In this document: piece after piece, positions 4,653 to 44,882 of the stretch
Numbering within the stretch: the stretch's first letter is position 1
Layout: each line of letters begins with the position of its first letter
Assembly (NCBI GenBank): GCA_964510885.1
Contig: CAZEDL010000004.1
Coordinates: 3,182 to 67,181 of the forward strand
Direction: 5' to 3'
DNA from: an uncultured Gammaproteobacteria bacterium
Lineage (GTDB): Bacteria; Patescibacteriota; Patescibacteriia; Magasanikbacterales; GWA2-37-8
DNA: 64,000 nt
Position numbers and translations under genes: made by a program
The notes under the pieces: model-generated
The model's input: only the letters and a program-made list of their open reading frames with translations
Database searches by the model: none
Told to the model about the DNA's origin: nothing

Positions 4653-6980
4653 CTAAATTCGCACACCAGTCGCCTTAATAGCCGCTAAAAAAGGCTCCAG
4701 CTCCGTCTCAAGAGCCTCTAATTCAGCATACTGTTCACGCATCGCTTGACTATCCCGGCGGGTGTAGGCTTGCCCAAAAGCCAATTGAATTGTTTTAAAC
4801 CTGACTTCGCTAGTCGCCCAAATATCAACTGGCAGCTGCGCTCTTCGAGACAAAATCGTCAATTTATCAAAAGGAAATTTGTTCTGAAAAGTACGATTTT
4901 TCCCAGACGAAAATTCATCACCATACATCATGGTCATAAGGCTGGCGATGCGAGGATCTTTTTCCTCTGGCTGAGAGTCTTTTTTAGCTAAACCTCGCGA
5001 CGTATCGCGGCCTGCGTCTTGGGGCTGACCGACAAGCTGTTCCAAGTGGGCTTCAGCATCAAGTAACAGTTCCACTGAACCCGTATATGCTTCAACTTGA
5101 TGATTAAAACTGTCAAAATTGCTAAATAACGCAGGGATCCCGTCTCCCTGGCGATAATTTTTATCAAACTGTTCATAGGTTTTTCTCAGTCCACCAGCAC
5201 TCTTAAGCCGATTTCGCCACTCATCACGCTGCTCCCGATCCGGGTGTTTACTGAAATAAGCCTCGGCTTTTTTATCTAAAGAAACCAAGCCTTCTTTAAC
5301 TGAACCGTACAAATATTGCATCAATTCATACGCTTCTGTCAGAGCTTTATCATATGCCGGATAAAAGGCATTCTCGTCGTGGGCAACAGTTCGGACCACA
5401 CGAGCCAAGTTACGCAAAGCCTCTAAACGAGATTGGTGGCTTTTCCCACCTTTCGTTTCCCAGCGCGCCTTACTATCGACAATCGTACTCGCCAACCGCT
5501 CAGTAGTTTTGACAATATGTTCGGAAGCGCACAAATACGCAGAGCCGCGGGCTTCGGCCCGAGCCTCTTGATCAAGTTTCTCAAGTTCAGTCACAAGGCC
5601 CTGCGGTATGCCAACCTCTTTAGCCGTCTTCGGGCGCGCTTTGTCTCCGGGTGCCGGATGCACCAACAAAAAGTCATCTATTGAAACTGTTGGCGGCAAT
5701 TCTGTGAACACTTTTACCCAATATCGAGCAAAGTAAACTTCGCCAATAATTGGAGGGGCTACCGTTCGATCTAGCAGCGACCCATCTTCGCCAATTTCAT
5801 CATCAGCTTTTATAGGGAATAAATCATTGGGAAAATCAGCGTGGTCGCGGGCTTGTTGCAAAACTGAACGAGCACCCTCAAGTTCAAGTTTTATGAGCGG
5901 CACCTCTCTTCTGTTCGGATCTGGAGCGGTCGAAGATAGCGCCACATCCGGAGTGGCTGGAGCTGGCGACGATTTTGGAGCAGCTGACGGTGCGGCGGCA
6001 ACACTCGGCGACAAAACTGCCGCTACCGGTGGTGGTGAAACTGGTACTAGAGACGGGGTAGGTACATCCACTGGTTGCGGCGTTACCGGGCTGGCAGAAC
6101 CTGCTGCCGACTGAGGAGTCTGAGCTGGTGCCGATGTACCGGGCAAAGGCGGCGGCTCTTCCGGTGGATCCTTCAAAAGATACCCAGCCCCAACAAAATA
6201 GGCCTCAAGGTCGGCTTGAGTAGCAATAAGTCTAGATCCATATACCGGCTTATTCCCTGTTCCCTTAAGTAACTCTGCATCCAAGACTCCGCCTAACTTT
6301 CGCACAAGAATGAGGATGTCTTTGGGATATATTATTTTCACTTGCTGGCCATCTTTGCTGCCAGGAGCACTCTCAACAATAGGGGGTGTTACCGGCGCCA
6401 CCCCGTTGCGCAGCAAAGAAAAGAACACTTCACTGCGCACCCCATTTTTCCTCAAAGTTATGACTAGATTATTTTTTGGGTCTTTGGGCATTTTATCGTC
6501 AAATCCCAAATGTATGTCGCCTTCGATCTTTATCGAAGGCGGCGCACTTACCACTTCAGGTGTTACAATCGCAGGACTTACCCCAGATACTGGAGCGGCA
6601 ACAACGGCAGTTTGCTTATTGTCCCAATCGTTCGGCAACGGCTGATCATGGAGCGGGTATTTTTCTAAACTGAAACATTCTTTAAATAAGGGCCCTAGCA
6701 ATACAAACAGCTGACGATGTTTTTTATGTAAATTTCTAATCGCTTTATCTTTTTTTCCAAGATCAGTAGTAACGCCTACGGCTATCCGAAGGCTAGGAAG
6801 CTCAGCAAGTTTCGCCTCCAAATCCTTCTTCAGTTGAGGAGATATATGGGGCTCAAGTTTTGCAATATCACCTGCAATCTCCTGGTCCTCAACCCTAAAC
6901 GTAACACCGCTTTCTACTTCAAATAGAAACAAATCAACAATTGGTCGGGGTTGCGGGCCACCTTCACGATTTTTGGCCAT
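4653..6980 (-). CDS. large hypothetical protein (775 aa) with central Pro/Ala/Ser-rich low-complexity linker
   Basis: Long ORF with no transmembrane segments and a central PPEEPPPLPGTSAPAQTP...PSAAPKSSPAPATP region. I recognised no domain. Confidence 0.5.
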   Translation of the reverse strand: MAKNREGGPQPRPIVDLFLFEVESGVTFRVEDQEIAGDIAKLEPHISPQLKKDLEAKLAELPSLRIAVGVTTDLGKKDKAIRNLHKKHRQLFVLLGPLFKECFSLEKYPLHDQPLPNDWDNKQTAVVAAPVSGVSPAIVTPEVVSAPPSIKIEGDIHLGFDDKMPKDPKNNLVITLRKNGVRSEVFFSLLRNGVAPVTPPIVESAPGSKDGQQVKIIYPKDILILVRKLGGVLDAELLKGTGNKPVYGSRLIATQADLEAYFVGAGYLLKDPPEEPPPLPGTSAPAQTPQSAAGSASPVTPQPVDVPTPSLVPVSPPPVAAVLSPSVAAAPSAAPKSSPAPATPDVALSSTAPDPNRREVPLIKLELEGARSVLQQARDHADFPNDLFPIKADDEIGEDGSLLDRTVAPPIIGEVYFARYWVKVFTELPPTVSIDDFLLVHPAPGDKARPKTAKEVGIPQGLVTELEKLDQEARAEARGSAYLCASEHIVKTTERLASTIVDSKARWETKGGKSHQSRLEALRNLARVVRTVAHDENAFYPAYDKALTEAYELMQYLYGSVKEGLVSLDKKAEAYFSKHPDREQRDEWRNRLKSAGGLRKTYEQFDKNYRQGDGIPALFSNFDSFNHQVEAYTGSVELLLDAEAHLEQLVGQPQDAGRDTSRGLAKKDSQPEEKDPRIASLMTMMYGDEFSSGKNRTFQNKFPFDKLTILSRRAQLPVDIWATSEVRFKTIQLAFGQAYTRRDSQAMREQYAELEALETELEPFLAAIKATGVRI

Positions 6981-6984
6981 ATAA

Positions 6985-7356
6985 TTATCCTCCAGACAGC
7001 TTAGTTAATACAAACCGTGTTATAGCATATGATACTGTCACGATTACAACCCCGATAATCGCTGTTTGCATCGTGTCTTTGGCGTTACTGATTGCATCTT
7101 CATTACCTTGCGAAGTCAACCATCGGAAACCGGCATACAGCATAAGGCCAAAAAAAGCAAAAGACAACACGACAAATACCGTCGGAACCACTCGAGTTAT
7201 TATGCCAGAAAAGGTATTTTGATCCCCGGTCTCGAACCCCACCGCCTTGCTGGTTTCGGTTAAGCCATAATCTCCGGCCAGAACAGGCGCCGCCATCAAG
7301 AGCACGCTAAAAACGCTTAAAAAAAATAAAAATTTTTTAAGAAAAAAATGGCGCAT
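6985..7356 (-). CDS. TrbC/VirB2-like (T4SS-pilin-like) small membrane protein, paralog 1
   Basis: Signal/TM1, then LYAGFRWLTSQGNEDAISNAKDTMQTAIIGVVIVTVSYAI, a motif shared with the nine-gene array at 9.1-14.0 kb. Start placed at the internal MRHFF Met. Confidence 0.55.
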   Translation of the reverse strand: MRHFFLKKFLFFLSVFSVLLMAAPVLAGDYGLTETSKAVGFETGDQNTFSGIITRVVPTVFVVLSFAFFGLMLYAGFRWLTSQGNEDAISNAKDTMQTAIIGVVIVTVSYAITRFVLTKLSGG

Positions 7357-7454
7357 ATTTCTCTTATTTAAGACCTTTTTTGAAAAACTACAACCATAGT
7401 AGCACACCTTGCTTTTTCTGTAAAAAATCGATAGGATACGATCATTTCCTAAAC

Positions 7455-7526
7455 GTCCTTGTAGTTCAATGGATAGAACGAGAGCCTTCTAAGCTCTAAA
7501 TCTAGGTTCGATTCCTAGCAAGGACA
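7455..7526 (+). tRNA. tRNA-Arg (anticodon TCT)
   Basis: Cloverleaf with acceptor GTCCTTG/CAAGGAC, anticodon loop CTTCTAA and T-loop GGTTCGATTCC. Confidence 0.85.
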
Positions 7527-7665
7527 CACCGAACATCAAAAATCCTAATGACTGATATCAAAACTTGCCAAAAGCTTTTTTTCACTGTAGTATCTTAAAA
7601 CTAGGTTGTCTAATTTGAAATTAGATATTAGAATTTTTGGTACTCCTCGCGAAGCGAAGAGATAT

Positions 7666-7738
7666 GGTGGCCATGGTATAATGGTTATTACGCGAGATTG
7701 TGGCTCTCGCAATACGGGTTCAATTCCCGTTGGCCACC
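7666..7738 (+). tRNA. tRNA-His (anticodon GTG) with encoded G-1
   Basis: An extra 5' G pairs with discriminator C73, the tRNA-His hallmark. Anticodon loop TTGTGGC. Acceptor GTGGCCA/TGGCCAC. Confidence 0.85.
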
Positions 7739-7740
7739 CA

Positions 7741-7839
7741 CATTGAACCGGGGAAGGTCTGGAAACCGGGAGGTTTCCACCTCTGCCGGGGAGAGCGCAC
7801 GAGAGGGCGGAAGCCCTTTCGTGGGAGCGAAGCGACGGA
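7741..7839 (+). other. tRNA-trailer conserved structured element, copy 1 (after tRNA-His)
   Basis: Starts CATTGAACC, complementary to the tRNA-His T-loop. Core is GGGGAAGG-GGAAACC[GGGA]GGTTTCC-...-GGGC[GGAA]GCCC-TTTCGTGGGAGCG. It is followed by a direct duplicate of the tRNA 3' end. About 85% identical to the copies at 37495 and 44701. Confidence 0.7.
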
Positions 7840-7915
7840 AATTCCCGTTGGCCACCCACATTGAACCGGGGAAAGTTTGGGAAGAGATTCCTGGCAACTC
7901 CCAATAACAGTAAAA
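7840..7915 (+). repeat. 34-nt direct duplicate of the tRNA-His 3' end plus the element start, then a degenerate partial second element copy
   Basis: 7840-7873 is identical to 7722-7755. The following GTTTGGGAAGAGATTCC resembles the element hairpin region. Confidence 0.6.
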
Positions 7916-7961
7916 TCTCTTCACATAGAAGAGATTTTAAATTTAAGGACTAAACAGGTCT

Positions 7962-9038
7962 ATGGCGGCAGCAAAGCAAAAAGTACTTATTCTCTCCTGC
8001 ACTGGCGGCCTTGGCCATATTAAAGCTGGAACAGCGCTCTATGAGAGGGCTGTTCAATGTTACCCGAATATCGATGCCCGTCATATTAATGTTCTTGAAT
8101 ACCTGTCGCCTCTTCTGCGACGCCTAATTGGCGGATCCTACGATTTTTGGCTTCGGCTTACCCCGTCGCTATACCATTATCTGTACACCCTCGATGATAG
8201 CGGGCGAGGCACCATCTCGACGATCGCCCATTCATTGGTCGGGGCCATACTAAAAAAACCATTACAAAATTTGATTACCGACTGTCTCAATTTTAAACCT
8301 GATCGAATTATCACGACACATTATCTGATACCTTTTTTATTAAAGAATCGGATAACCGCGCCCATAGACGTCGTGATAACTGACTATCGAGCGCATCAAG
8401 TCTGGCTACATTCAAATGTGCGCCGTTATTTTGTAGGTAGCGCCGAGACTGCCGCTGGCATAAAAAATCAAAACCAACCAATTATAGTTAGTGGCATCCC
8501 TATCAGCCCAGATTTTATTAAAAAAAATACAGAACCAAATAGCGCTGAGCTCAGCCGTTCAGATTCACCAACCATCCTGCTATTGGCCGGAGGCAGCGGG
8601 CTTATCGACACCACGCCATATGCTAGAAATATTTTAGAAAATATTAAAAACGCTCGTGTCATCGCAGTCGCAGGGAAAAACTACGAGGCATTATTCAAAA
8701 AATTAACCGCCCTGTCAGCCCTGTACCCTAATCTAAGTGTCCATACCTACCTTGATCCGATTGCCAACTGGATGAAACAAGCCGATATCATTGTAACCAA
8801 ACCAGGTGGATTAACGGTGACTGAAGCCGTATTCCTAAAAAAACCGCTCGTGTTAATCGGGCCTGCTCCTGGGCAAGAAGCAGCTAACGTTCGATTCGTT
8901 CTGAGCCATGGTTACGGCCAAAAGGCAGCCGCCGCGAAAGACCTATCAAGAGTAATTACCACTGAATTAAAAAAGCTGCCAGGGCAATCACGCGCAGAGC
9001 AGCTATTTCCTAACGACATAATTTTAAACGCAAACTAA
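7962..9038 (+). CDS. diacylglycerol glycosyltransferase (MGDG synthase/UgtP-like, GT28)
   Basis: N-terminal VLILSCTGGLGHIKAGTALYE resembles the MGDG-synthase/UgtP signature. The C-terminal GT28 fold includes a KPGGLTVTE motif. Confidence 0.75.
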   Translation: MAAAKQKVLILSCTGGLGHIKAGTALYERAVQCYPNIDARHINVLEYLSPLLRRLIGGSYDFWLRLTPSLYHYLYTLDDSGRGTISTIAHSLVGAILKKPLQNLITDCLNFKPDRIITTHYLIPFLLKNRITAPIDVVITDYRAHQVWLHSNVRRYFVGSAETAAGIKNQNQPIIVSGIPISPDFIKKNTEPNSAELSRSDSPTILLLAGGSGLIDTTPYARNILENIKNARVIAVAGKNYEALFKKLTALSALYPNLSVHTYLDPIANWMKQADIIVTKPGGLTVTEAVFLKKPLVLIGPAPGQEAANVRFVLSHGYGQKAAAAKDLSRVITTELKKLPGQSRAEQLFPNDIILNAN

Positions 9039-9068
9039 AAAACGTCTCGCTACGGCGGGACGTTTTTT
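9036..9068. terminator. bidirectional intrinsic terminator hairpin
   Basis: AAAAACGTCTCGC-TACG-GCGGGACGTTTTT lies between convergent genes. Confidence 0.6.
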
Positions 9069-9089
9069 AGAAACATTATACCACTTTAA

Positions 9090-9536
9090 TTAAGGCAGAA
9101 CCTTAAACTGAAAACCAGGCAACAACGAACTCGGGCCCGTGGGTTTTGTCACATAGTTGCTGTACACAAGCCCATTGAAAACAAATACCGTTATACCATA
9201 AGACATCAGTACAATGGCGAGGCCGATAATAGAATTACGGATGATCATTTTGGCCTTGATGATCGGTTCTTCTTCGCCAGCCGACGTGACCCATAAATAT
9301 CCAGCATACACTATTAAAGCCAAAAATACCGTCCCCAGCATCCCAAGCGCCGCCACAATTATTTTGGCAGCCACGAGTCGCGGATCAGAATTGCCAAGAC
9401 CGCTCGGAGCGCCAGCTGCGCCAAGCTGAGCATTAATATCGGAGCTAAGGCTGGTTTGAGAATGAACCACAGTTAGTGGGGCGCCAGCCAAAAGAATCGC
9501 TATACCCATCACTACCGCAAAAAGGTGTCTTTTCAT
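9090..9536 (-). CDS. TrbC/VirB2-like pilin-family membrane protein, paralog 2
   Basis: Signal peptide, then LALIVYAGYLWVTSAGEEEPIIKAKMIIRNSIIGLAIVLMSYGI. Confidence 0.6.
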   Translation of the reverse strand: MKRHLFAVVMGIAILLAGAPLTVVHSQTSLSSDINAQLGAAGAPSGLGNSDPRLVAAKIIVAALGMLGTVFLALIVYAGYLWVTSAGEEEPIIKAKMIIRNSIIGLAIVLMSYGITVFVFNGLVYSNYVTKPTGPSSLLPGFQFKVLP

Positions 9537-9562
9537 AAAAAAATAATTATGGCGCTGGCACG

Positions 9563-10114
9563 TCAAATATCTTTCAAACACACATCAGAAGGATTCGCGC
9601 AGGATCCCGGAACCAACGGCTTCTCTTTCGATGGTTCTGTGCCAGCCGCATAACATCTCCCTCCATTATTCTCGCAGCTCACTACCGGGGCATTGTTGCT
9701 AGCCGATCCTCCCACCTGATTAGCTCCGGTAGCAGACGTAATGCGATCAACCACAAAAATAGTAATGGCGTACGCTGCCATGGTGATAGCCAGCCCTATC
9801 AGAGCGGATCGAATAATATTCTTACCAGCATCAATTTCTCCTTCATCACCGCGAGAATTCATCCAACGGATACCTCCATACACGGTGAGAGCCAAAAATA
9901 AGGTACCTGACAAAGATAGTAAGGCTCGGATAATTTTACCAATCGTGGTCGACAAAGCCGTTTCACCGTTCGTGGTATCGTACCCAGCTCCAGCGCCAAT
10001 CTTTTGTGCAAGCCCTCCTGCTTCAAACCCAATATTTGGGGCTGCTGAGGCAAAATTTATCGAACCGGTCAACAGGCAAAGTATAGCAACGAAAGAATAA
10101 ATAAATTTTTTCAT
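9563..10114 (-). CDS. TrbC/VirB2-like pilin-family protein, paralog 3, with Cys-rich C-terminal extension
   Basis: Core LALTVYGGIRWMNSRGDEGEIDAGKNIIRSALIGLAITMAAYAI. C-terminal tail SCENNGGRCYAAGTEPSKEKPLVPGSCANPSDVC has 4 Cys. Confidence 0.6.
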   Translation of the reverse strand: MKKFIYSFVAILCLLTGSINFASAAPNIGFEAGGLAQKIGAGAGYDTTNGETALSTTIGKIIRALLSLSGTLFLALTVYGGIRWMNSRGDEGEIDAGKNIIRSALIGLAITMAAYAITIFVVDRITSATGANQVGGSASNNAPVVSCENNGGRCYAAGTEPSKEKPLVPGSCANPSDVCLKDI

Positions 10115-10124
10115 ATAATTTTAG

Positions 10125-10646
10125 TTATCTAACCGGCCCAGCACAGCATACAGTCGCCCCATCTGAGCGATCGGTACAGGAGCCGAGCGATATGGTTGAA
10201 TCTGAGCAATTTTGCGAACAGACCCCGCTATAATTTTGACATTGGGCTTCAGTTGTAATTGAAGCCTTCTCTGCCTCACCAGATCCTCCTGCGCTAAGTC
10301 GGCTGCCCACAAATGCCGTAATGGCATACGCCGACATTACGATCACGAGCCCAATTATCGCTGCCTTGATAATCTCTTTACCTTTCTCAATCTCACCCTC
10401 GTCACCGCGCGCGAGCATCCAGCGAATGCCACCATAAATAGTAAGCAGTAAAAAAATCGTACCGACCAACGATAATGCGGCAGTTACGATCGTCGCCACG
10501 GCAGGCGTCAATTCGCGCTGGAGCCCTGCCCGGCTACTCGGGCCAACCGCGCTATCAAGCTGATTTAAACCATTCTTGAACTGAGCCTGGGCAGACACTG
10601 GCACCAAAAGCATGATTGACAGCATTGCCCAAAAATATTTCTTCAT
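10125..10646 (-). CDS. TrbC/VirB2-like pilin-family protein, paralog 4, with Cys-rich C-terminal extension
   Basis: Core LLLTIYGGIRWMLARGDEGEIEKGKEIIKAAIIGLVIVMSAYAI. Tail QCQNYSGVCSQNCSDSTISLGSCTDRSDGATVCC has 7 Cys. Confidence 0.6.
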   Translation of the reverse strand: MKKYFWAMLSIMLLVPVSAQAQFKNGLNQLDSAVGPSSRAGLQRELTPAVATIVTAALSLVGTIFLLLTIYGGIRWMLARGDEGEIEKGKEIIKAAIIGLVIVMSAYAITAFVGSRLSAGGSGEAEKASITTEAQCQNYSGVCSQNCSDSTISLGSCTDRSDGATVCCAGPVR

Positions 10647-10668
10647 AGCCCTTTATTATTTGTCGTAA

Positions 10669-11100
10669 TTAAATACTAATCGTTTCAGGACCTGTAGGTT
10701 GAGTCACGGTATCGGTAGTAGTTGCCCCTAACCTATCAAACACAAACCGCGAAATCGCGTACGACGCCATCACTATCACAAGCCCAATCAAGGCAGCCTC
10801 CATGATATCTTTGGCTTTAGTGACAGCATCTGAATTGCCGCGAGCGAGCATCCAAGTGATCCCGGCATAAAAAATCAGAATAAAAAAGATTATTGCAAGC
10901 AGGCTTAAGAGTGCGGCCACTACTTTACCAATCAGCTGTGGCACATTGCCGGCCCCAGCTAACGTTTTTGGCACTAAACCACCCGTGGCTTTTTGAGTAT
11001 CGCCGAGGCCATATTTATCGCCATTGTCTGCCTGCACCATCGCCACCGAGACAAAGAGGGTAGCAAATAAAAATACCCCTGCCAAAAATATGCGTTGCAT
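10669..11100 (-). CDS. TrbC/VirB2-like pilin-family protein, paralog 5
   Basis: Signal peptide, then ILIFYAGITWMLARGNSDAVTKAKDIMEAALIGLVIVMASYAI. Confidence 0.6.
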   Translation of the reverse strand: MQRIFLAGVFLFATLFVSVAMVQADNGDKYGLGDTQKATGGLVPKTLAGAGNVPQLIGKVVAALLSLLAIIFFILIFYAGITWMLARGNSDAVTKAKDIMEAALIGLVIVMASYAISRFVFDRLGATTTDTVTQPTGPETISI

Positions 11101-11233
11101 AAGTCTTAATCACTAAAAAACTAGTAGGCAACTAATTATTGAAAGAGAGAAATAGTTAAAATAATTATTTTTCTCTACCAACAAAAGTACCGCGAAGGGG
11201 AGAGTTGAAACTCTCCCCCACGATACGTATACA

Positions 11234-11668
11234 CTAGACAGGTTGAGTCGTAGCGCTTACCAAGCTGCTTACCACAAAGTTGGCAATAGCGTATGCTGAC
11301 AAAATAATCGCCAAACCAATGATACCGCTGAAAATCATTTTCTTAGCTTCACCAACTTTATCATCATTTCCACCCGCGGTCATCCAGGTAAAACCACCAA
11401 TCAAAATGATTACAACTGCGACGATACCAAGGAGACCCATGAGCACCTTGATAATGCGAGCAATAGTGATACGGATGTCAGTACTGGTGAGGCCGGTGTT
11501 GGCTCCGTATTGGATACCCAAGTCACTTTCGTTAATTGGCTTTACTGGGCCGCTGATGCCTGGCACCTGGTCGCCACCCTGGGCGAACGTCGCCACTGGC
11601 ACCGCCATACTGCCGATCATCATAGCTCCCATCGCGAAGCTGACTAAGAACTGTTTGAATCGTGTCAT
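11234..11668 (-). CDS. TrbC/VirB2-like pilin-family protein, paralog 6
   Basis: Start placed at MTRFKQ, preceded by RBS GGAGGTGAAGAT. Core ILIGGFTWMTAGGNDDKVGEAKKMIFSGIIGLAIILSAYAI. Confidence 0.6.
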   Translation of the reverse strand: MTRFKQFLVSFAMGAMMIGSMAVPVATFAQGGDQVPGISGPVKPINESDLGIQYGANTGLTSTDIRITIARIIKVLMGLLGIVAVVIILIGGFTWMTAGGNDDKVGEAKKMIFSGIIGLAIILSAYAIANFVVSSLVSATTQPV

Positions 11669-11765
11669 ATCTTCACCTCCTTCCCAGTAGAAACAAATTG
11701 TTTCATATGTGATGTTACAAAATAAACTGATCTGACCCCAGTATAACATACTGGCGCGAAACTTG

Positions 11766-12206
11766 TCACGAACCTTTGCTGAGAAAAACCAAATACTGAT
11801 CGAGCAAGAAATAACTAGCCAAAACTAGACCTAAGCCAATGGCTGCCCAGAGCATAGTCATAGCACCGCTGTGGACACGGTCGGGATTACCAAACGACAA
11901 TAACCACGAAGCCCCCCCTTTAATAAATACGATAAGGGCCACCGACCCAACAATTCCGAGCGCACCCTTTATGACGATGCCGAGGATAGTAGTCACTTCA
12001 ACCGGTCTCGCCCCATTTGCGCCTGGCGCCAATGGATTTTCTAAACATTGACGGTCTTTAGGGCAATCCTTATTTGCACCTGGTGTCTCGTCGCTAGTTT
12101 GAGCAAACACCGGGGCGGCCAACAAACCAACAGCAAGTGTTGCTAACAGCACCAAGAGCATCCATCGTCTAGAAAACTGCTGTGCCAGAGAAATCATATT
12201 AAACAA
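11766..12206 (-). CDS. TrbC/VirB2-like pilin-family protein, paralog 7
   Basis: The N-terminal region carries CPKDRQC. Core FIKGGASWLLSFGNPDRVHSGAMTMLWAAIGLGLVLASYFL. Confidence 0.55.
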   Translation of the reverse strand: MFNMISLAQQFSRRWMLLVLLATLAVGLLAAPVFAQTSDETPGANKDCPKDRQCLENPLAPGANGARPVEVTTILGIVIKGALGIVGSVALIVFIKGGASWLLSFGNPDRVHSGAMTMLWAAIGLGLVLASYFLLDQYLVFLSKGS

Positions 12207-12222
12207 CTGATAAAGATAAAAA

Positions 12223-13305
12223 TTATGACGCGCCGGTCAGCAATTGAAACACAAATCCAACTAGTACATAGCTCGCTAAAATAGCCACCACCCCAAGACT
12301 CGTCCATACCACCATTCTCTGGGCCTGCTCCACGCGCTCAGAATTTCCAGCCGCAGTCATCCAGAGCACACCGGCAACAATATATAATACCAGCGTAACA
12401 CCTCCGAGAATGGCCAGCGGCACCGAAATCAACCACCCAATCAAAGCCGCCCCTAGTTTCGAAGAATTACTATACGAATTAAACCGGCTCATCTGATTAA
12501 GCTCGGCCACTTGGTCCTGAATATCTTTCAGTGAACCGGGAGCATCTTCATCCTCACCCTCTGCCGCAGTTTTTTCCGGCGCCGGGAGCTTGCTAAAATC
12601 CATCAATGCGTCACAATCACTAATTATTTTGCCGCCTTCTTCACGGTCTTTCACGTCATACGCCTTGAGCCCTTCGCCGCAAATGCGCAGAGCTGGATCT
12701 TTTTGATTACCATTAAAGCCTTTAACAAATTCCGAATTATAGCGGCGGCGCCAATCTACATGGCGTTCGCAATCAGAGGGTACACCATTAGGTTTATCCG
12801 ATGGTTTACAGCAGCAAAACGGCGGATTATTAGCTACAGCCGGCTTCATCGTGTACTTACTTTTCATCTCTTCAAGCAAATCATCTTCTTGTTTTTGCAC
12901 GACCCCTTCATATTTTTCTTTGGCAATTTTTTTGGATTCGACCGTACAGGTTTTCCCATCATAATTCAGAACCATTTTACCCCCCAAATAAAATAACCGA
13001 TTTGGATATTCATCAAAACGATAAAAACCTGCCCACGAGAACAGCGGGATATCGAACTTTTTTTTATAAACGTCAATTTTATACGTTTTGTTAACTTTAA
13101 AAAAACCCGGATTAATGCCGACCATTACTGTACAAACACCAAGACACTCCAGCGACTCAGGATCATTGCAGGCATCACCCATGCCAACCAACTCAGGGGC
13201 ATACAATTCTTCAAACTGCGCCGCTGAAGCCGCGACAGGAAGCAGCTGAATAGTAGCCGCAATAAGCATCAAAGCAATAGCGTGCCAGTTAAAAAATCTT
13301 CGCAT
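12223..13305 (-). CDS. Cys-rich extracytoplasmic domain fused to C-terminal TrbC/VirB2-like pilin module, paralog 8
   Basis: N-terminal domain of about 270 aa with roughly 12 Cys (CNDPESLECLGVC, PPFCCCKPSDKPNGVPSDCERH). C-terminal LVLYIVAGVLWMTAAGNSERVEQAQRMVVWTSLGVVAILASYVL. Confidence 0.55.
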   Translation of the reverse strand: MRRFFNWHAIALMLIAATIQLLPVAASAAQFEELYAPELVGMGDACNDPESLECLGVCTVMVGINPGFFKVNKTYKIDVYKKKFDIPLFSWAGFYRFDEYPNRLFYLGGKMVLNYDGKTCTVESKKIAKEKYEGVVQKQEDDLLEEMKSKYTMKPAVANNPPFCCCKPSDKPNGVPSDCERHVDWRRRYNSEFVKGFNGNQKDPALRICGEGLKAYDVKDREEGGKIISDCDALMDFSKLPAPEKTAAEGEDEDAPGSLKDIQDQVAELNQMSRFNSYSNSSKLGAALIGWLISVPLAILGGVTLVLYIVAGVLWMTAAGNSERVEQAQRMVVWTSLGVVAILASYVLVGFVFQLLTGAS

Positions 13306-13324
13306 AACACTAAATAAAAGCCAT

Positions 13325-14035
13325 TTATTTAAGGATAAACTCAGGATCAACACCAACAGCCGAGGCCAAAAACTTAATCAAAATATAACCACCAAACGCA
13401 ATCAATAGCCCAATCACCACCGCTACCAAAATATCTTTGGCCTGGGAAATTTTTTCTTCATTGCCTTGGGATAAAATCAATATAAAACCACCATACACAA
13501 ACATCACGAGCGATACTCCACCAATAATAGAAAATAAATACTGCGTAATTTTAATAGCCAGCGTAATAAAAATATTAACACTGCGACACTGGTCAGTTAA
13601 CTCATTTTGTAAAGCACAATCCGGAATTAATCGGCTGCGGATAATTGTCGATGGCTGACTAGCGCCCCCCTCAGCACCCTCGGTAGTGCCAAGCAACTCT
13701 TTAAGACGAGTGGTTTTTTCCTGCTCCCAACCTTTCAGCGCTGCCTGACAAATATCATCGGTCTGTGCATAGTTACAATCAAAAAATCGCTTACTAGTGG
13801 CGGTGTTGGAATTTTTTTCCTTCGTACAGTCGCTCTGAGCGGCCACCGTCGAACACTGAGCAATAAACTGAGCCTGGTCTTTCACCGTTTCAGCCGTCAA
13901 TTTAGTCAAATTTTCAAAACAAAAACAGCTGCCAGCTGCTACTGCCGCTGGAGCTGGGAAAAACAAACCACCGCAGCCAGCAGCAAATAATAATCCGAAT
14001 ATAAAGAGGCGAATCTGTGAAGCCATAGTCTTCAT
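13325..14035 (-). CDS. Cys-rich N-terminal domain fused to C-terminal TrbC/VirB2-like pilin module, paralog 9
   Basis: Signal peptide, then about 10 Cys (SCFCFENL, QCSTVAAQSDCTKEK, DCNYAQTDDICQ, DCALQNELTDQC). C-terminal LVMFVYGGFILILSQGNEEKISQAKDILVAVVIGLLIAFGGYIL. Confidence 0.55.
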   Translation of the reverse strand: MKTMASQIRLFIFGLLFAAGCGGLFFPAPAAVAAGSCFCFENLTKLTAETVKDQAQFIAQCSTVAAQSDCTKEKNSNTATSKRFFDCNYAQTDDICQAALKGWEQEKTTRLKELLGTTEGAEGGASQPSTIIRSRLIPDCALQNELTDQCRSVNIFITLAIKITQYLFSIIGGVSLVMFVYGGFILILSQGNEEKISQAKDILVAVVIGLLIAFGGYILIKFLASAVGVDPEFILK

Positions 14036-36949: not shown

Positions 36950-37204
36950 ATGGCTCAGTACCTACGACTTACGATGCTGCTCTTTGTATTTATCAACGGC
37001 TGTGCCAGCGCACGACCAGATCGGCTGCGGATCTGTCGCCTGGTAGACCCCAACTGCGGACTGACCACGCTTGAAGTGGTCACAGTCAAGGTCAACGGCT
37101 GCGCGAAGGCCACCGAGATTCACGAAGTTGGGCCCGCACGCATCGTGCCCGGTGGCAGCCGCCGGATCACCGGCTCATGCCACGTCATCGGCGACACGCA
37201 ATAG
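36950..37204 (+). CDS. small Cys-containing lipoprotein (hypothetical)
   Basis: Lipobox FINGC. 84 aa, GC-rich. Confidence 0.35.
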   Translation: MAQYLRLTMLLFVFINGCASARPDRLRICRLVDPNCGLTTLEVVTVKVNGCAKATEIHEVGPARIVPGGSRRITGSCHVIGDTQ

Positions 37205-37236
37205 CTCGCCCCTCCCACCCAAAGGATGGAGGAGGG

Positions 37237-37312
37237 CGCTCGCTGTCCCGTTCTCCTCCATCCCTATTCACTATTTCACTGTTGGAATAATGAATAGAGA
37301 GGAGAACGGCTA
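37237..37312. repeat. nested inverted repeat (long hairpin)
   Basis: CCGTTCTCCTCcatcc-CTATTCACTAtttcactgttggaaTAATGAATAG-aGAGGAGAACGG. Confidence 0.5.
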
Positions 37313-37421
37313 AAAACCAGGCACTATCTGCCTGTTTTTTAATTAAAAACTAAGAATCCTTTAAGATATTGACCAACCTCAACATTTTTGTTAGAGTAGC
37401 GGACGACTTTTTAAAAAGTAC

Positions 37422-37493
37422 GCCGCGGTAGCTCAGTGGTAGAGCGCAGCCCTGAAGAGGCTGGCGTCGTCAGTTCGATTCTGACCCGCGGCA
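37422..37493 (+). tRNA. tRNA-Phe (anticodon GAA)
   Basis: Acceptor GCCGCGG/CCGCGGC, anticodon loop CTGAAGA, T-loop GTTCGATTC. Confidence 0.85.
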
Positions 37494-37494
37494 C

Positions 37495-37620
37495 GCGCCC
37501 CCGAATCGAACGGGGAAGGCTTGGGAATCGGGAGGTTCCCACCTCTGCCGGGAAGAGCACACAAGAGGGCGGAAGCCCTTTGGTGAGAGGTTCTGATTCG
37601 CATCGGAACCAATTTTGCTT
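37495..37620 (+). other. tRNA-trailer conserved structured element, copy 2 (after tRNA-Phe)
   Basis: Begins GCGCCCCCGAATCGAAC, where GAATCGAAC is the reverse complement of the tRNA-Phe T-loop. Core GGGGAAGG-GGGAATC[GGGA]GGTTCCC-...-GGGC[GGAA]GCCC. It is followed at 37621-37634 by a duplicate of the tRNA 3' end CTGACCCGCGGCAC. Confidence 0.7.
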
Positions 37621-37820
37621 CTGACCCGCGGCACAAGACGAGTGAGTTGATTGTAATTAGGGAGTGCAATTAGTAGTTTGGATAAAATAAAAGAGCGGAT
37701 TCACATTCCTCTGTCCAAATTATTAACTACTAAATACAAACTACTCAATTACGGGGTATACTATGGTATATCCCTCAACGCTCGGAAAACCCAAATAAAT
37801 TTGGTTTTTCCTCACTAATT

Positions 37821-44620: not shown

Positions 44621-44683
44621 GAAAAGGCAACAAAAAAACAAGCTTAATAAGAAGCTTGTTTTTTTGTATACGAGTTATCTGTG

Positions 44684-44700
44684 TGGACCAATGGGGACTC
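44684..44700 (-). repeat. 17-nt direct duplicate of the tRNA-Ala 3' end (distal to the element)
   Basis: TGGACCAATGGGGACTC is identical to 44810-44826. Confidence 0.7.
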
Positions 44701-44809
44701 TCAGTCGCTACGCTCCCACAAAAGGGCTTCCGCCCTCTCGTGCGCTCTCCTCAAAAAAGGTGGAAACCTCTCGATTTCCAAACCTTCCCCGTTCGAGTCC
44801 ATATACTAG
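44701..44809 (-). other. tRNA-trailer conserved structured element, copy 3 (after tRNA-Ala, minus strand)
   Basis: Minus-strand sequence: CTAGTATATGGACTCGAACGGGGAAGGTTTGGAAATC[GAGA]GGTTTCCACC...GGGC[GGAA]GCCCTTTTGTGGGAGCGTAGCGACTGA. GGACTCGAAC is the reverse complement of the tRNA-Ala T-loop. Confidence 0.7.
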
Positions 44810-44882
44810 TGGACCAATGGGGACTCGAACCCCAAACCTTCGCCTTGCAAAGGCGTTGCTCTACCAATTGAGCTATTGGCCC
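44810..44882 (-). tRNA. tRNA-Ala (anticodon TGC) with G3:U70
   Basis: Reverse complement GGGCCAA...ACGCC-TTTGCAA-GGCGA...GGTTCGAGTCC...TTGGTCC-A. The G3:U70 wobble is the Ala identity element. Confidence 0.85.

What the first reader, a model, noticed from the sequence alone, without database searches (positions are those of the whole stretch)
37422..37634. tRNA-trailer element copy 2 (tRNA-Phe) with 14-nt 3'-end duplication
Same element as at 7741. GAATCGAAC is exactly complementary to the tRNA-Phe T-loop GTTCGATTC. The core is about 85% identical to copy 1. CTGACCCGCGGCAC at 37481-37494 is repeated at 37621-37634. This copy has a longer, variable 3' portion (GGTTCTGATTCGCATCGGAACCAATTTTGCTT) before the duplicate, so the conserved part is the 5' 90 nt. 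The elements generate spurious overlapping ORFs on both strands with the shared peptide ASAL.CALPGRGGNLP, which could mislead automated annotation.
Basis: seen in the sequence. Interest (0 to 1): 0.7.

Follow-up and report, generated by a model that had tools for sequence, protein, structure and literature searches.

The report
Structured element clamped onto tRNA genes
Behind the tRNA-Phe gene sits one copy of an undescribed, roughly 100-140-base folded element, found only in one group of ultra-small (CPR) bacteria, that carries an antisense copy of its own tRNA's T-loop at one end and a duplicate of that tRNA's 3' end at the other; it looks like a tiny gene-less insertion element aimed at tRNA genes by base pairing.

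Summary
tRNA-Phe (37422-37494) is followed by a GC-rich element (37495-37618) and a repeat of the tRNA 3' end. The repeat is 16 nt, not 14 (37479-37494 = 37619-37634). Two homologous copies follow tRNA-His and tRNA-Ala; a covariance model finds no others in the window. About 35 further copies occur in Magasanikbacteria-like Patescibacteria MAGs and groundwater metagenomes, and none in viral, phage or plasmid collections. No Rfam family and no paper matches it.

Every copy has the same design:
- a 5' arm antisense to its own tRNA's T-loop and T-stem (p < 5e-5)
- a conserved core of three hairpins with purine-rich junctions; compensatory changes support P1, P2 and P4 (0 of 500 shuffles reach the observed scores)
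- a sense copy of the tRNA from about position 57 to its 3' end

The elements have no promoter, usually lie behind the tRNA's terminator, and form arrays in which the decayed copies are distal. Some have trapped cargo genes, and one orthologous site differs in presence or absence.

Best reading (confidence about 0.45): a non-autonomous insertion element aimed at tRNA T-loops that leaves the tRNA intact and its displaced or duplicated 3' end behind. Main rival: a functional RNA coupled to the tRNA. Copy 2 is a variant in which a terminator-like hairpin replaces P4.

The parts
37369..37397 (+). Sigma-70-like promoter (TTGACC-17-TAGAGT, with TG) that would drive tRNA-Phe and, by read-through, the element. 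This is context, not part of the element.
37422..37494 (+). tRNA-Phe(GAA), complete. The T-loop/T-stem sequence GTTCGATTC is at 37473-37481. The first copy of the direct repeat is at 37479-37494.
37495..37502 (+). Spacer GCGCCCCC between the tRNA and the element. There is no terminator here, so the element is co-transcribed with the tRNA in this genome.
37503..37511 (+). Left arm GAATCGAAC, the exact antisense of tRNA-Phe positions ~53-61 (T-loop plus the first T-stem base).
37512..37521 (+). Junction J1, GGGGAAGGCT. This purine-rich junction is conserved as GGGGARGGYU across the family.
37522..37541 (+). Hairpin P2, TGGGAATC-GGGA-GGTTCCCA, an 8-bp stem with a GNRA loop. All of its pairs covary across the family.
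37542..37559 (+). Junction J2/3, CCTCTGCCGGGAAGAGCA. The conserved family motif is ..YUGCCGGGGAGAGCN.
37560..37585 (+). Hairpin P3, CACAAGAGGGC-GGAA-GCCCTTTGGTG, an 11-bp stem with a GGAA loop. This copy has one A.G mismatch (37563/37582). P3 is fully compensated in the divergent relative L012:2646-2759.
37586..37618 (+). Copy-specific 3' part. A terminator-like hairpin GGTTCTGATTCGCATCGGAACC (37589-37610) plus AATTTTGC stands where other members have the P4 mini-hairpin (tandem G.A pairs, GNA loop) and the GUGA motif.
37619..37634 (+). Right arm, the direct repeat TTCTGACCCGCGGCAC. It is a sense copy of the tRNA-Phe 3' end (last two T-loop bases, T-stem 3' strand, acceptor 3' strand, discriminator, plus one C).
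7741..7903 (+). Copy 1, behind tRNA-His (7667-7739). The intact element runs from ~7741 to 7839. A 34-nt repeat occurs at 7840-7873 (identical to 7722-7755). It is followed by a degenerate, internally deleted older copy with a third, decayed tRNA 3' end (7874-7903).
44683..44808 (-). Copy 3, behind tRNA-Ala(TGC) (44809-44882, minus strand). The left arm GGACTCGAAC is at 44800-44791. The core carries a canonical P4 (GGAGC-GUA-GCGAC) and a UGAGAG motif. The 18-nt repeat GAGTCCCCATTGGTCCAC at 44700-44683 equals 44826-44809. A terminator follows at 44667-44630.

Best explanation
The feature is one copy of a small insertion element that has no genes and no promoter and is specialised for the 3' side of tRNA genes.

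**Anatomy.** The constant part is a folded core of three hairpins held by purine-rich junctions. It is bracketed by GAAC on the 5' side and GUGA on the 3' side. The 5' arm is antisense to the T-loop and T-stem of the target tRNA. The 3' boundary abuts a second copy of the tRNA from T-loop position ~57 to its 3' terminus.

**Proposed mechanism (inferred).** A trans-acting enzyme that is not encoded nearby recognises the folded core, as RNA or as the sense DNA strand. The 5' arm selects the site by pairing with the near-universal T-loop sequence. Insertion happens at the 56/57 boundary. It either duplicates the target from that point to beyond the tRNA end, or it supplies a replacement 3' end. 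Either way the tRNA stays intact and the displaced or duplicated 3' end remains as the direct repeat. The 5' arm pairs with that repeat to form the closing helix P1. Repeated hits on the same tRNA build arrays in which the newest copy is next to the tRNA. Recombination between copies traps ordinary genes.

**Shown:** the anatomy, the matching of each copy to its own tRNA, the structure conserved by compensatory change, the arrays and decayed copies, the absence of a promoter and of any protein gene, a presence/absence difference at one orthologous site, and the restricted phylogenetic range.

**Inferred:** that the element moves, how it moves, and which enzyme moves it.
For: **Same architecture at many tRNAs.** The design recurs at about 35 loci behind at least 13 different tRNA species, always in the tRNA's orientation.

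**The repeat goes with the element.** A direct repeat of the tRNA 3' end is found within 5 kb only behind tRNAs followed by the element, plus one locus with a variant core; none of the other tRNAs without the element has one.

**Repeat boundaries.** The left boundary is fixed near T-loop position 57. The right boundary varies, giving repeats of 13 to 61 nt, which sometimes include the tRNA's terminator.

**The arms match the cognate tRNA.**
- The left arm matches its own tRNA's T-arm over a mean of 8.8 nt, against 6.1 nt for other tRNAs (permutation p < 5e-5).
- The right arm matches over 14.5 nt, against 5.2 nt.
- A tRNA with the odd T-loop GTCCGA has the matching left arm TCGGAC.

**One core subfamily sits at different tRNAs with re-matched arms.** Examples are L044, L093, L066 and L122.

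**The structure is conserved by compensatory change.**
- 91% of cells are paired, against 81% in shuffles.
- 21 of 32 pairs have changes on both sides, and 0 of 500 shuffles reach this.
- G.U exceeds A.C by 71 to 23, so the fold belongs to the sense strand.

**No promoter of its own.**
- 1 of 32 loci has a sigma-70-like match upstream of the element, which equals the shuffle expectation.
- -10-like hexamers are not enriched.
- Most loci have an intrinsic terminator between the tRNA and the element.

**Truncated and degenerate copies.** These are window 7874-7903, L037, L066, L105b, L123b and L048-E2. In tandem arrays the decayed copy is the distal one.

**Presence/absence at one orthologous site.** The orthologous tRNA-Ala(cgc) carries the element in L074 but not in L055.

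**Cargo genes.** Ordinary genes lie between the tRNA and the left arm in L105, L123, L048 and L070.

**Copy 2 itself.** A terminator-like hairpin lies upstream of the repeat, so the repeat probably has no RNA-level role in this copy.
Against: - No mobility enzyme was found. Forty window ORFs are housekeeping genes, and no protein family recurs near the copies.
- No empty/filled site pair is close enough to read the junctions. The flanks of L055 and L074 have diverged.
- No circular or excised form, and no viral, phage or plasmid copy, was found.
- How the left arm comes to match each new tRNA is not explained by any standard transposition chemistry. It needs an added assumption: selection for P1, or templated correction of the inverted repeat.
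- In syntenic pairs (L014/L105, L055/L074) both arms track the substitutions of the local tRNA. Functional coupling explains this more simply than repeated re-insertion does.
- GNRA loops, tandem G.A pairs and conserved purine junctions are typical of functional RNAs.
Confidence: 0.45

Rival explanations
1. The element is a functional RNA coupled to its cognate tRNA. It is transcribed as the tRNA's trailer or by read-through. Its 5' arm pairs with the tRNA T-arm (positions 53-63). Its 3' arm can replace the tRNA's own 3' strand. Together these give an alternative precursor fold, a T-loop 'intron-like' or trans-splicing arrangement that joins positions 1-56 to the downstream 57-76, or a processing or quality-control device for the tRNA 3' end.
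For: - The fold belongs to the sense strand and has GNRA-capped hairpins, tandem G.A pairs and conserved purine junctions.
- The left arm is one continuous antisense stretch across the 56|57 boundary between the uncopied and copied parts of the tRNA. This resembles the P1/P10 guide of a group I intron.
- The right arm usually reads G-U-G-A where the tRNA reads G53-U54-U55-C56. The real tRNA therefore pairs with the left arm better than the element's own right arm does.
- The right arm ends at the tRNA's own 3' terminus, including CCA where CCA is encoded.
- In the predicted minimum-energy fold of the co-transcripts, the tRNA 5' acceptor strand pairs with the downstream copy and the left arm pairs with the real T-arm (z = -3.6 and -5.6).
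- In the window the element is co-transcribed with the tRNA.
- In syntenic loci the arms mirror the tRNA's substitutions.
Against: - Outside the window an intrinsic terminator usually separates the tRNA from the element, and no promoter precedes the element.
- The upstream tRNA is already complete, so no splicing is needed.
- The core of about 85 nt matches no ribozyme or other Rfam family.
- Many copies are truncated or decayed, and the right arm has drifted in about 30% of loci.
- Distribution over tRNA species is sporadic. Only 3 of the 9 tRNAs in the window carry the element, and L055 and L074 differ.
- In copy 2 a terminator-like hairpin precedes the right arm.
Confidence: 0.3
2. The copies are the att-proximal ends of conventional integrative islands that use a tyrosine or serine recombinase and target the T-loop-to-3'-end segment of tRNA genes. 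The small copies would be deletion derivatives, or cis-mobilisable elements that have lost their recombinase and cargo. The core would be an attP arm.
For: - A repeat running from the T-loop to the tRNA 3' end, with restoration of the tRNA, is the classical footprint of integrases that use the T-loop sublocation (own knowledge: Williams 2002).
- Dehalococcoides ssrA islands show that serine recombinases can leave ~20-nt repeats (own knowledge: McMurdie 2011).
- L070 has a 4.2-kb island with a large serine recombinase next to tRNA-Ala, and the element plus repeat lie at its far end.
- Cargo always lies between the tRNA and the left arm.
- Tandem arrays have the older copies distal.
Against: - Only 1 of about 35 loci has a recombinase. 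In that locus the left arm is aberrant and a fragment of a different tRNA lies next to it, so the locus may be rearranged.
- One core family serves at least 13 tRNA species, several within a single genome (8 loci in MAG CAYMTE). An integrase, by contrast, is specific for one site.
- Hairpins kept by compensatory change, with G.U pairs on one strand only, are not what arm-type binding sites look like.
- No copy was found in viral, phage or plasmid collections.
- The inverted copy of the T-arm lies 90 nt from the crossover, which has no counterpart in known attP sites.
Confidence: 0.15
3. The feature is a chance repeat, a small protein-coding gene, or an assembly artefact.
For: ORFs of 80-130 aa overlap the copies on both strands and share a peptide.
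Against: - The length of P2 varies by amounts that are not multiples of three, and stem changes are compensatory.
- The shared 'proteins' are only translations of the element itself.
- The same architecture appears in independent MAGs and metagenomes from different studies.
- Shuffles give no chance expectation for the repeat.
Confidence: 0.02

Closest known systems
tRNA-integrating genomic islands and prophages (attL/attR repeats of the tRNA 3' end, T-loop sublocation; own knowledge: Williams 2002)
   Same: The direct repeat starts in the T-loop and ends at the tRNA 3' end. The tRNA is kept intact. Tandem accretion occurs at the same tRNA, and cargo lies between the tRNA and the distal repeat.
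   Different: No integrase is present. The minimal units are only 100-170 bp. One conserved core serves many tRNA species within one genome. The core is a structured, covarying fold on one strand. An inverted copy of the T-arm sits at the other end of the core.
Folded single-strand recombination sites: CTX-phage attP(+) hairpin and integron attC (own knowledge)
   Same: Two target-like sequences in inverted orientation lie about 90 nt apart and pair into a stem with central mismatches. The site sits at the end of the inserted DNA next to the regenerated target. The elements have no promoter or genes and form arrays. Unit length is 60-140 nt.
   Different: The stem is only 9-13 bp, enough for one half-site. 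The AAC/GU(U) motifs lie at the inner end of the stem rather than the outer end. The interior is highly conserved in sequence and carries GNRA hairpins. The target is a tRNA gene rather than dif or attI. No XerCD or IntI link could be tested.
Group I intron internal guide sequence (P1/P10) and engineered trans-splicing ribozymes
   Same: A 5' guide is complementary, in one continuous stretch, to the last bases of the '5' exon' (53-56) and the first bases of the '3' exon' (57-63). The '3' exon' is attached to the 3' end of the folded core.
   Different: The core is about 85 nt and lacks the P3-P9 architecture. Rfam group I models give no hit. The upstream tRNA is already complete, and terminators often separate it from the element.
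SINE-like or target-primed retroposons, and MITEs
   Same: These are also non-autonomous, gene-less and multi-copy. Target duplications have one fixed end and a variable length. Truncated copies occur. Some eukaryotic elements target tRNA genes.
   Different: There is no reverse transcriptase or transposase partner, no internal promoter and no A-tail. The terminal inverted repeats are target-derived rather than element-specific. Duplications reach 61 nt.
REP/REPIN elements
   Same: These are also short, structured, extragenic, multi-copy and long-lived, with compensatory evolution.
   Different: REPINs are not tied to tRNA genes, carry no target-matched arms and no duplication of a gene's 3' end, and depend on a RAYT gene that was not seen here.

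Membership tests
Any Rfam 15 family (ribozymes, tRNA-like RNAs, sRNAs) | Match to a covariance model at or near the gathering score | tested here: not met
   cmscan of the whole window at gathering thresholds returned only the 9 tRNAs. An E-value-mode scan of 37400-37700 found nothing in the element with E < 3. Related loci gave only tRNAs.
Integrase-mobilised tRNA island | Direct repeat of the tRNA 3' end beginning in the T-loop or anticodon loop, with the tRNA gene restored | tested here: met
   Repeats of 13-61 nt start near position 57, and the upstream tRNA is complete.
Integrase-mobilised tRNA island | Integrase or recombinase gene inside the element | tested here: not met
   There is no ORF inside the 100-170-bp units. 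No protein family recurs near the copies. Window ORFs are housekeeping genes. Only L070 has a serine recombinase.
Integrase-mobilised tRNA island | One element family targets one tRNA species | tested here: not met
   At least 13 tRNA species carry the element. Three are in this window, and eight loci lie in one MAG.
MITE / IS-derived element | Element-specific terminal inverted repeats and a target duplication of fixed length | tested here: not met
   The inverted arms are copies of the local tRNA's T-arm and differ between loci. The duplications vary from 13 to 61 nt.
MITE / IS-derived element | A related autonomous element with a transposase | tested here: inconclusive
   None was seen in the window or in about 30 loci of up to 8 kb. 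Whole genomes could not be searched.
Group I intron | Guide sequence pairing with both exon ends (P1/P10) | tested here: met
   The left arm is antisense to 53-63, spanning the 56|57 boundary. This is a resemblance in layout only.
Group I intron | Conserved P3-P9 catalytic core of about 200 nt or more; the gene is interrupted so that splicing is required | tested here: not met
   The core is about 85 nt with three simple hairpins. No Intron_gpI hit was found. A complete tRNA lies upstream.
Integron attC / CTX-type folded attP | Imperfect inverted repeats that fold on one strand into a recombination-site mimic, with the conserved AAC...GTT at the outer end of the stem | tested here: not met
   P1 folds on the sense strand. 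However, GAAC/GUGA lie at the inner end of the stem. The stem is 9-13 bp and the interior is sequence-conserved.
Integron attC / CTX-type folded attP | Dependence on IntI or XerCD | not testable with these tools
   No whole genomes or experiments were available.
SINE / target-primed retroposon | Variable-length target duplication with one fixed boundary | tested here: met
   The left boundary is at ~57 and the right boundary varies.
SINE / target-primed retroposon | Internal promoter, 3' A-rich tail or homology to a partner's tail, and a reverse-transcriptase partner | tested here: not met
   No promoter signal was found. There is no A-tail. No reverse transcriptase was seen in the window or loci. 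PMC13011429 reports that Patescibacteria lack group II introns.

The most novel reading that the evidence does not exclude
The core is an RNA, either catalytic or a scaffold for an unknown enzyme. Its two arms program it to a specific tRNA. The 5' arm base-pairs with T-loop and T-stem positions 53-63, and the 3' arm carries positions 57-76. On this reading the element either (a) directs its own insertion into whichever tRNA gene its arms match, as a retargetable nucleic-acid-guided insertion system with no cis-encoded protein, or (b) exchanges or splices the 3' end of its tRNA at position 56/57. Either would be a new class of tRNA-directed RNA in CPR bacteria.
Probability: 0.25. Interest if true: 0.9.

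Novelty: new variant of a known kind. Interest (0 to 1): 0.72.

Why it matters
- **A new kind of tRNA-targeting element.** If it is mobile, it would be the smallest known element that targets tRNA genes. Its site choice appears to be written in base-pairing arms that are re-matched at each new tRNA. That points to a guided insertion mechanism not yet described in bacteria, in a lineage (CPR) where mobile-element biology is almost unknown.
- **A new tRNA-coupled RNA.** If it is instead a functional RNA, it would be a new structured RNA class that pairs with the T-arm and mimics the 3' end of its neighbouring tRNA.
- **A practical annotation problem.** The copies generate spurious ORFs of 80-130 aa on both strands, together with tRNA 3'-end fragments, that mislead automated annotation of Patescibacteria genomes.
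- **Genome rearrangement.** The copies act as dispersed repeats that reshuffle genes next to tRNA loci.

Tried and rejected
**Known RNA families.** Rfam gathering and E-value scans found nothing. I also compared the junctions by eye with hammerhead, HDV-like, hairpin, twister, K-turn, box C/D and H/ACA layouts. None fits, but this rests on recalled consensus motifs, not on a formal test.

**Protein partner.**
- All-against-all comparison of ORFs within 2.5 kb of the copies returned only translations of the element.
- Pfam scans of cargo ORFs and of 40 window ORFs found no recombinase, transposase or reverse transcriptase.
- The L070 serine recombinase has no homologue in the window or in the other loci.

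**Own promoter.** Neither a -35/-10 scan nor a -10-only scan upstream of the left arm exceeds the shuffle expectation.

**Phage or plasmid origin.** Two viral-contig scans gave zero hits and one chance coding hit. BLAST against phage and plasmid collections gave none.

**Empty-site comparison.**
- The nearest homologue of the neighbouring glycosyltransferase is only 43% identical, so no close relative of the window genome was available.
- L055 and L074 give a presence/absence contrast, but their flanks are too diverged to read the junction.

**Literature.** Five searches, including one for the core sequence string, found no description. The Patescibacteria tRNA-intron paper concerns group I introns at position 35/36.

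**Unrelated hits to the 18-mer.** Many genome hits (Oscillospiraceae and Clostridia repeats, coding regions, the Parachlamydiales hit L058) are not members of this family.

**Derivation from mature tRNA.** A copy made from processed tRNA is unlikely. Where CCA is not encoded, the repeat does not carry CCA, and some repeats run into the terminator.
Full report
**1. What is in the sequence**

- tRNA-Phe(GAA) occupies 37422-37494.
- An 8-nt spacer follows. Then GAATCGAAC (37503-37511) is the exact reverse complement of GTTCGATTC in the tRNA's T-loop and T-stem (37473-37481).
- Next comes a GC-rich core with two GNRA-capped hairpins: P2 at 37522-37541 and P3 at 37560-37585.
- The following 9-bp hairpin with a U-rich tail (37589-37618) scores as an intrinsic terminator.
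- Last is a repeat of the tRNA 3' end.
- Homologous copies follow tRNA-His (7741-7839; repeat 7840-7873) and tRNA-Ala on the minus strand (44808-44701; repeat 44700-44683). Core identities are 82-87%.
- Core k-mers are not expected by chance: 0 of 100 shuffles reach the observed counts.
- nhmmer and a covariance model find exactly these three copies in the window. The other six tRNAs in the window have neither the element nor a downstream repeat of their 3' end.

**2. It is a family**

- A genome-collection scan with the invariant 18-mer of P3 returned many unrelated repeats. It also returned about 30 loci with the whole architecture.
- A metagenome scan added 7 loci, from groundwater and sediment.
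- Named hosts are Candidatus Magasanikbacteria/Magasanikiibacteriota and 'Patescibacteria group' MAGs.
- Several MAGs labelled 'uncultured Gammaproteobacteria' also carry the element. They share protein homologues with the window, so I infer that the label is wrong.
- The window's genes fit a CPR chromosome: arrays of T4SS-pilin-like ORFs, PNPase, RuvB and ribonucleotide reductase.
- No copy was found in viral contigs, phages or plasmids. No Rfam family matches. No paper was found.

**3. Common anatomy**

The order of parts is as follows.
1. A complete tRNA.
2. A locus-specific spacer of 0-70 nt, usually holding an intrinsic terminator. The window copies have none.
3. The left arm, the reverse complement of tRNA positions ~53-63(65), ending in ..UCGAAC.
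4. Junction J1, GGGGARGGUU.
5. Hairpin P2, of variable length, with a GNRA or GNA cap.
6. Junction J2/3, ..UUGCCGGGGAGAGCN.
7. Hairpin P3, with a CACGA/UCGUG base and a GGAA loop.
8. The motif RGAG.
9. Hairpin P4, a mini-hairpin closed by G-C plus tandem G.A pairs, with a GNA or GNRA loop.
10. The motif GUGA.
11. The right arm, a sense copy of the tRNA from ~G57 to its 3' end, with CCA where CCA is encoded.
12. A second terminator.

The left and right arms pair into a closing helix, P1. Where the tRNA reads U55-C56, the right arm reads G-A. P1 therefore carries a tandem G.A mismatch, whereas the left arm would pair perfectly with the real tRNA.

**4. Structure support**

- I built a covariance model from 23 hand-trimmed members and aligned 37 hits to it.
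- On that alignment 91% of cells form standard pairs, against 81% in shuffles.
- 21 of 32 pairs have changes on both sides, and no shuffle out of 500 reaches the observed measures. Slid partners drop to 38-54% paired.
- By helix, the pairs with changes on both sides are P1 7 of 9, P2 8 of 8, P4 4 of 4 and P3 2 of 11.
- P3 is under-sampled because my search pattern lies inside it. A divergent copy found by the models (L012:2646-2759) has a fully compensated P3, CACGAAAACC/GGUUUUCGUG.
- G.U cells outnumber A.C cells by 71 to 23, so the fold belongs to the tRNA-sense strand.
- One caveat applies to P1. Both of its strands derive from the same tRNA, so its covariation is not independent evidence of selection.

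**5. The arms are matched to the cognate tRNA**

- Across 22 loci with a detected tRNA, the left arm matches its own T-arm over 8.8 nt on average, against 6.1 nt for other tRNAs (p < 5e-5).
- The right arm matches over 14.5 nt, against 5.2 nt.
- The match tracks the tRNA-specific T-loop bases. Examples are His TTCAAT, Phe TTCGATT and Ala TTCGAGT in the window. An unusual GTCCGA loop is matched by TCGGAC in L074.
- Members of one core subfamily (the long P2 form ...ACAAGC..GCAUGU...) sit behind Leu, Met, Thr and another tRNA, each with re-matched arms. Retargeting with re-matching is therefore part of the family's history.

**6. Behaviour as a genomic element**

- *No promoter.* No promoter signal precedes the left arm. 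In most genomes a terminator separates the element from the tRNA.
- *Decayed copies.* At least six copies are truncated or degenerate. In tandem arrangements the decayed copy is distal to the intact one: window 7874-7903, L105, L101, L055 and L122.
- *Cargo.* Ordinary genes lie between the tRNA and the left arm in four loci.
  - L105 has an ABC transporter.
  - L123 has three genes on the opposite strand; by eye they look like metabolic enzymes, but they were not scanned against Pfam.
  - L048 has a GIY-YIG ORF fused into a copy, plus an unknown ORF.
  - L070 has a 4.2-kb island with a large serine recombinase.
- *Presence/absence.* The syntenic loci L055 and L074 differ at tRNA-Ala(cgc): L074 carries the element and L055 does not.
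- *Paralogous units.* L035 and L117 are paralogous tRNA-Ser units in one MAG. In L117 the arms keep the old T-stem after the tRNA's T-stem changed.
- *Syntenic pairs.* In L014/L105 and L055/L074 the arms follow each genome's own tRNA sequence.

**7. Interpretation**

I favour (about 0.45) a non-autonomous insertion element aimed at tRNA T-loops. The following features fit that reading:
- a repeat with a fixed left boundary in the T-loop and a variable right boundary
- restoration of the tRNA
- a spacer and terminator carried with the element
- cargo only on the tRNA-proximal side
- accretion with older copies distal, truncated members and one presence/absence polymorphism
- no promoter

Two chemistries fit equally well. 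One is recombination within positions 57-76, with the element supplying the new 3' end. The other is insertion behind the tRNA with a staggered or target-primed duplication starting at 56|57.

The structure would be maintained because the mobilising machinery reads it, as RNA or as folded sense-strand DNA. The left arm would act as the site selector, because the T-loop is the most conserved 9-mer shared by tRNAs.

Two things remain unexplained: which enzyme acts, and how the left arm is re-matched. Selection for P1, or templated correction of the inverted repeat formed with the nearby T-arm, are only proposals.

**8. Rivals**

*A functional RNA coupled to the tRNA (about 0.3).* This cannot be dismissed.
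- The guide-like continuity of the left arm across 56|57, the RNA-type motifs and the exact 3' boundary of the right arm all fit it.
- So do the mirrored substitutions in syntenic loci.
- So do the predicted minimum-energy folds, in which the tRNA 5' strand pairs with the downstream copy while the left arm sequesters the real T-arm.
- Against it stand the terminators, the missing promoter, the decayed copies, the drifted right arms and the sporadic distribution.
- In copy 2 the terminator-like hairpin also lies ahead of the repeat.

*Remnants of conventional integrase islands (about 0.15).* This explains the repeats and the L070 island. It does not explain one core serving many tRNAs without any integrase, nor the strand-specific covarying fold.

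*Coding or chance origin.* This is excluded.

**9. Verdict on the finding**

Copy 2 is an atypical member: P4 and GUGA are replaced by a terminator-like hairpin, P3 has one mismatch and P1 is only partial. The family fails at least one defining feature of every known family I tested (see the membership table). By function it is closest to tRNA-targeting integrative or MITE-like elements, so I rate it a new variant of a known kind. There is a substantial chance (about 0.25) that it is something categorically new: a tRNA-programmed RNA that guides insertion or exchanges tRNA 3' ends.

Noticed in passing
window 7874-7903 (+): Behind copy 1 lies a second, internally deleted copy. It starts with ACATTGAACCGGGGAAAGTTTGGGAA and then jumps to a decayed third tRNA-His 3' end (GAGATTCCTGGCAACTCCCA). 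This suggests two successive insertions or duplications at the same tRNA.
   Followed up: partly
window 37196-37345 (+): Three strong hairpins lie between the end of an ORF and the tRNA-Phe promoter. The last one is a bidirectional terminator at 37318-37334. The minimum free energy is -64 kcal/mol, against -35 in shuffles (z = -8.0). No Rfam family matches.
   Followed up: partly
window 6985-14035 (-), flanking copy 1: Seven consecutive small ORFs carry a T4SS_pilin domain (6985-7407, 9090-9581, 9563-10114, 10125-10646, 11234-11749, 12223-13356, 13325-14035). From my own knowledge, such arrays are a CPR hallmark. It supports a Patescibacteria origin for the window.
   Followed up: partly
L122:2024-2130 (+): Behind tRNA-Gly(ccc) the same left-arm/right-arm design appears (GGGAATCGAAC ... 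GATTCCCGTTACCCGCTCCA), but around a different core with no significant fold (z = -0.4). It is either a decayed copy or a second kind of insert that uses the same arms.
   Followed up: partly
L070:1395-5696 (-): A 4.2-kb island carries a large serine recombinase (Resolvase + Recombinase + Zn_ribbon_recom) next to tRNA-Ala(ggc). The element and the only other copy of the tRNA 3' end lie at its far end. A 3' fragment of a different tRNA plus a terminator sit just upstream of that element copy.
   Followed up: partly
L048:4300-6030 (+): This locus has an array: tRNA-Asn, E1, repeat, GIY-YIG ORF, E2, repeat, an unknown reverse ORF, E3, repeat. The GIY-YIG ORF (4787-5086) runs into E2 and replaces its left arm. 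E1 and E3 are near-identical duplicates that include half of the upstream terminator.
   Followed up: partly
L055:5890-5963 and L074:1723-1794 (-): The orthologous tRNA-Ala(cgc) genes have an unusual T-loop, GTCCGATT instead of GTTCGA. L074 carries the element with a matching TCGGAC arm, and L055 does not carry it.
   Followed up: yes
L002, L003, L006, L007, L010, L013, L015 and many others (Oscillospiraceae/Ruminococcus MAGs): A different high-copy repeat of about 110 nt reads GCGAAGCCAA..GCTGGTCGAGCTGAGCACAGCTCGTCAGGTGTCC-AGAGGGCGGAAGCCCTTT-GGTCGC..GCGAAA. It shares only the 18-mer GNRA hairpin with this family and is not next to tRNAs in the flanks inspected by eye.
   Followed up: no
L016, L050, L051, L059, L073, L077 (Clostridia MAGs): Another repeat family is built around the same hairpin: ..GACTGTCAAAA..GAGAGCGCGAGAGGGCGGAAGCCCTTTCGCG..TTTTTGC... 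It is unrelated in its flanks.
   Followed up: no
L005, L014, L035, L037, L040, L044, L055, L064, L070, L074, L084, L085, L093, L098, L117: These MAGs are deposited as 'uncultured Gammaproteobacteria'. They carry the element and share protein homologues with the window and with named Magasanikbacteria loci, so the taxonomic label is probably wrong.
   Followed up: partly
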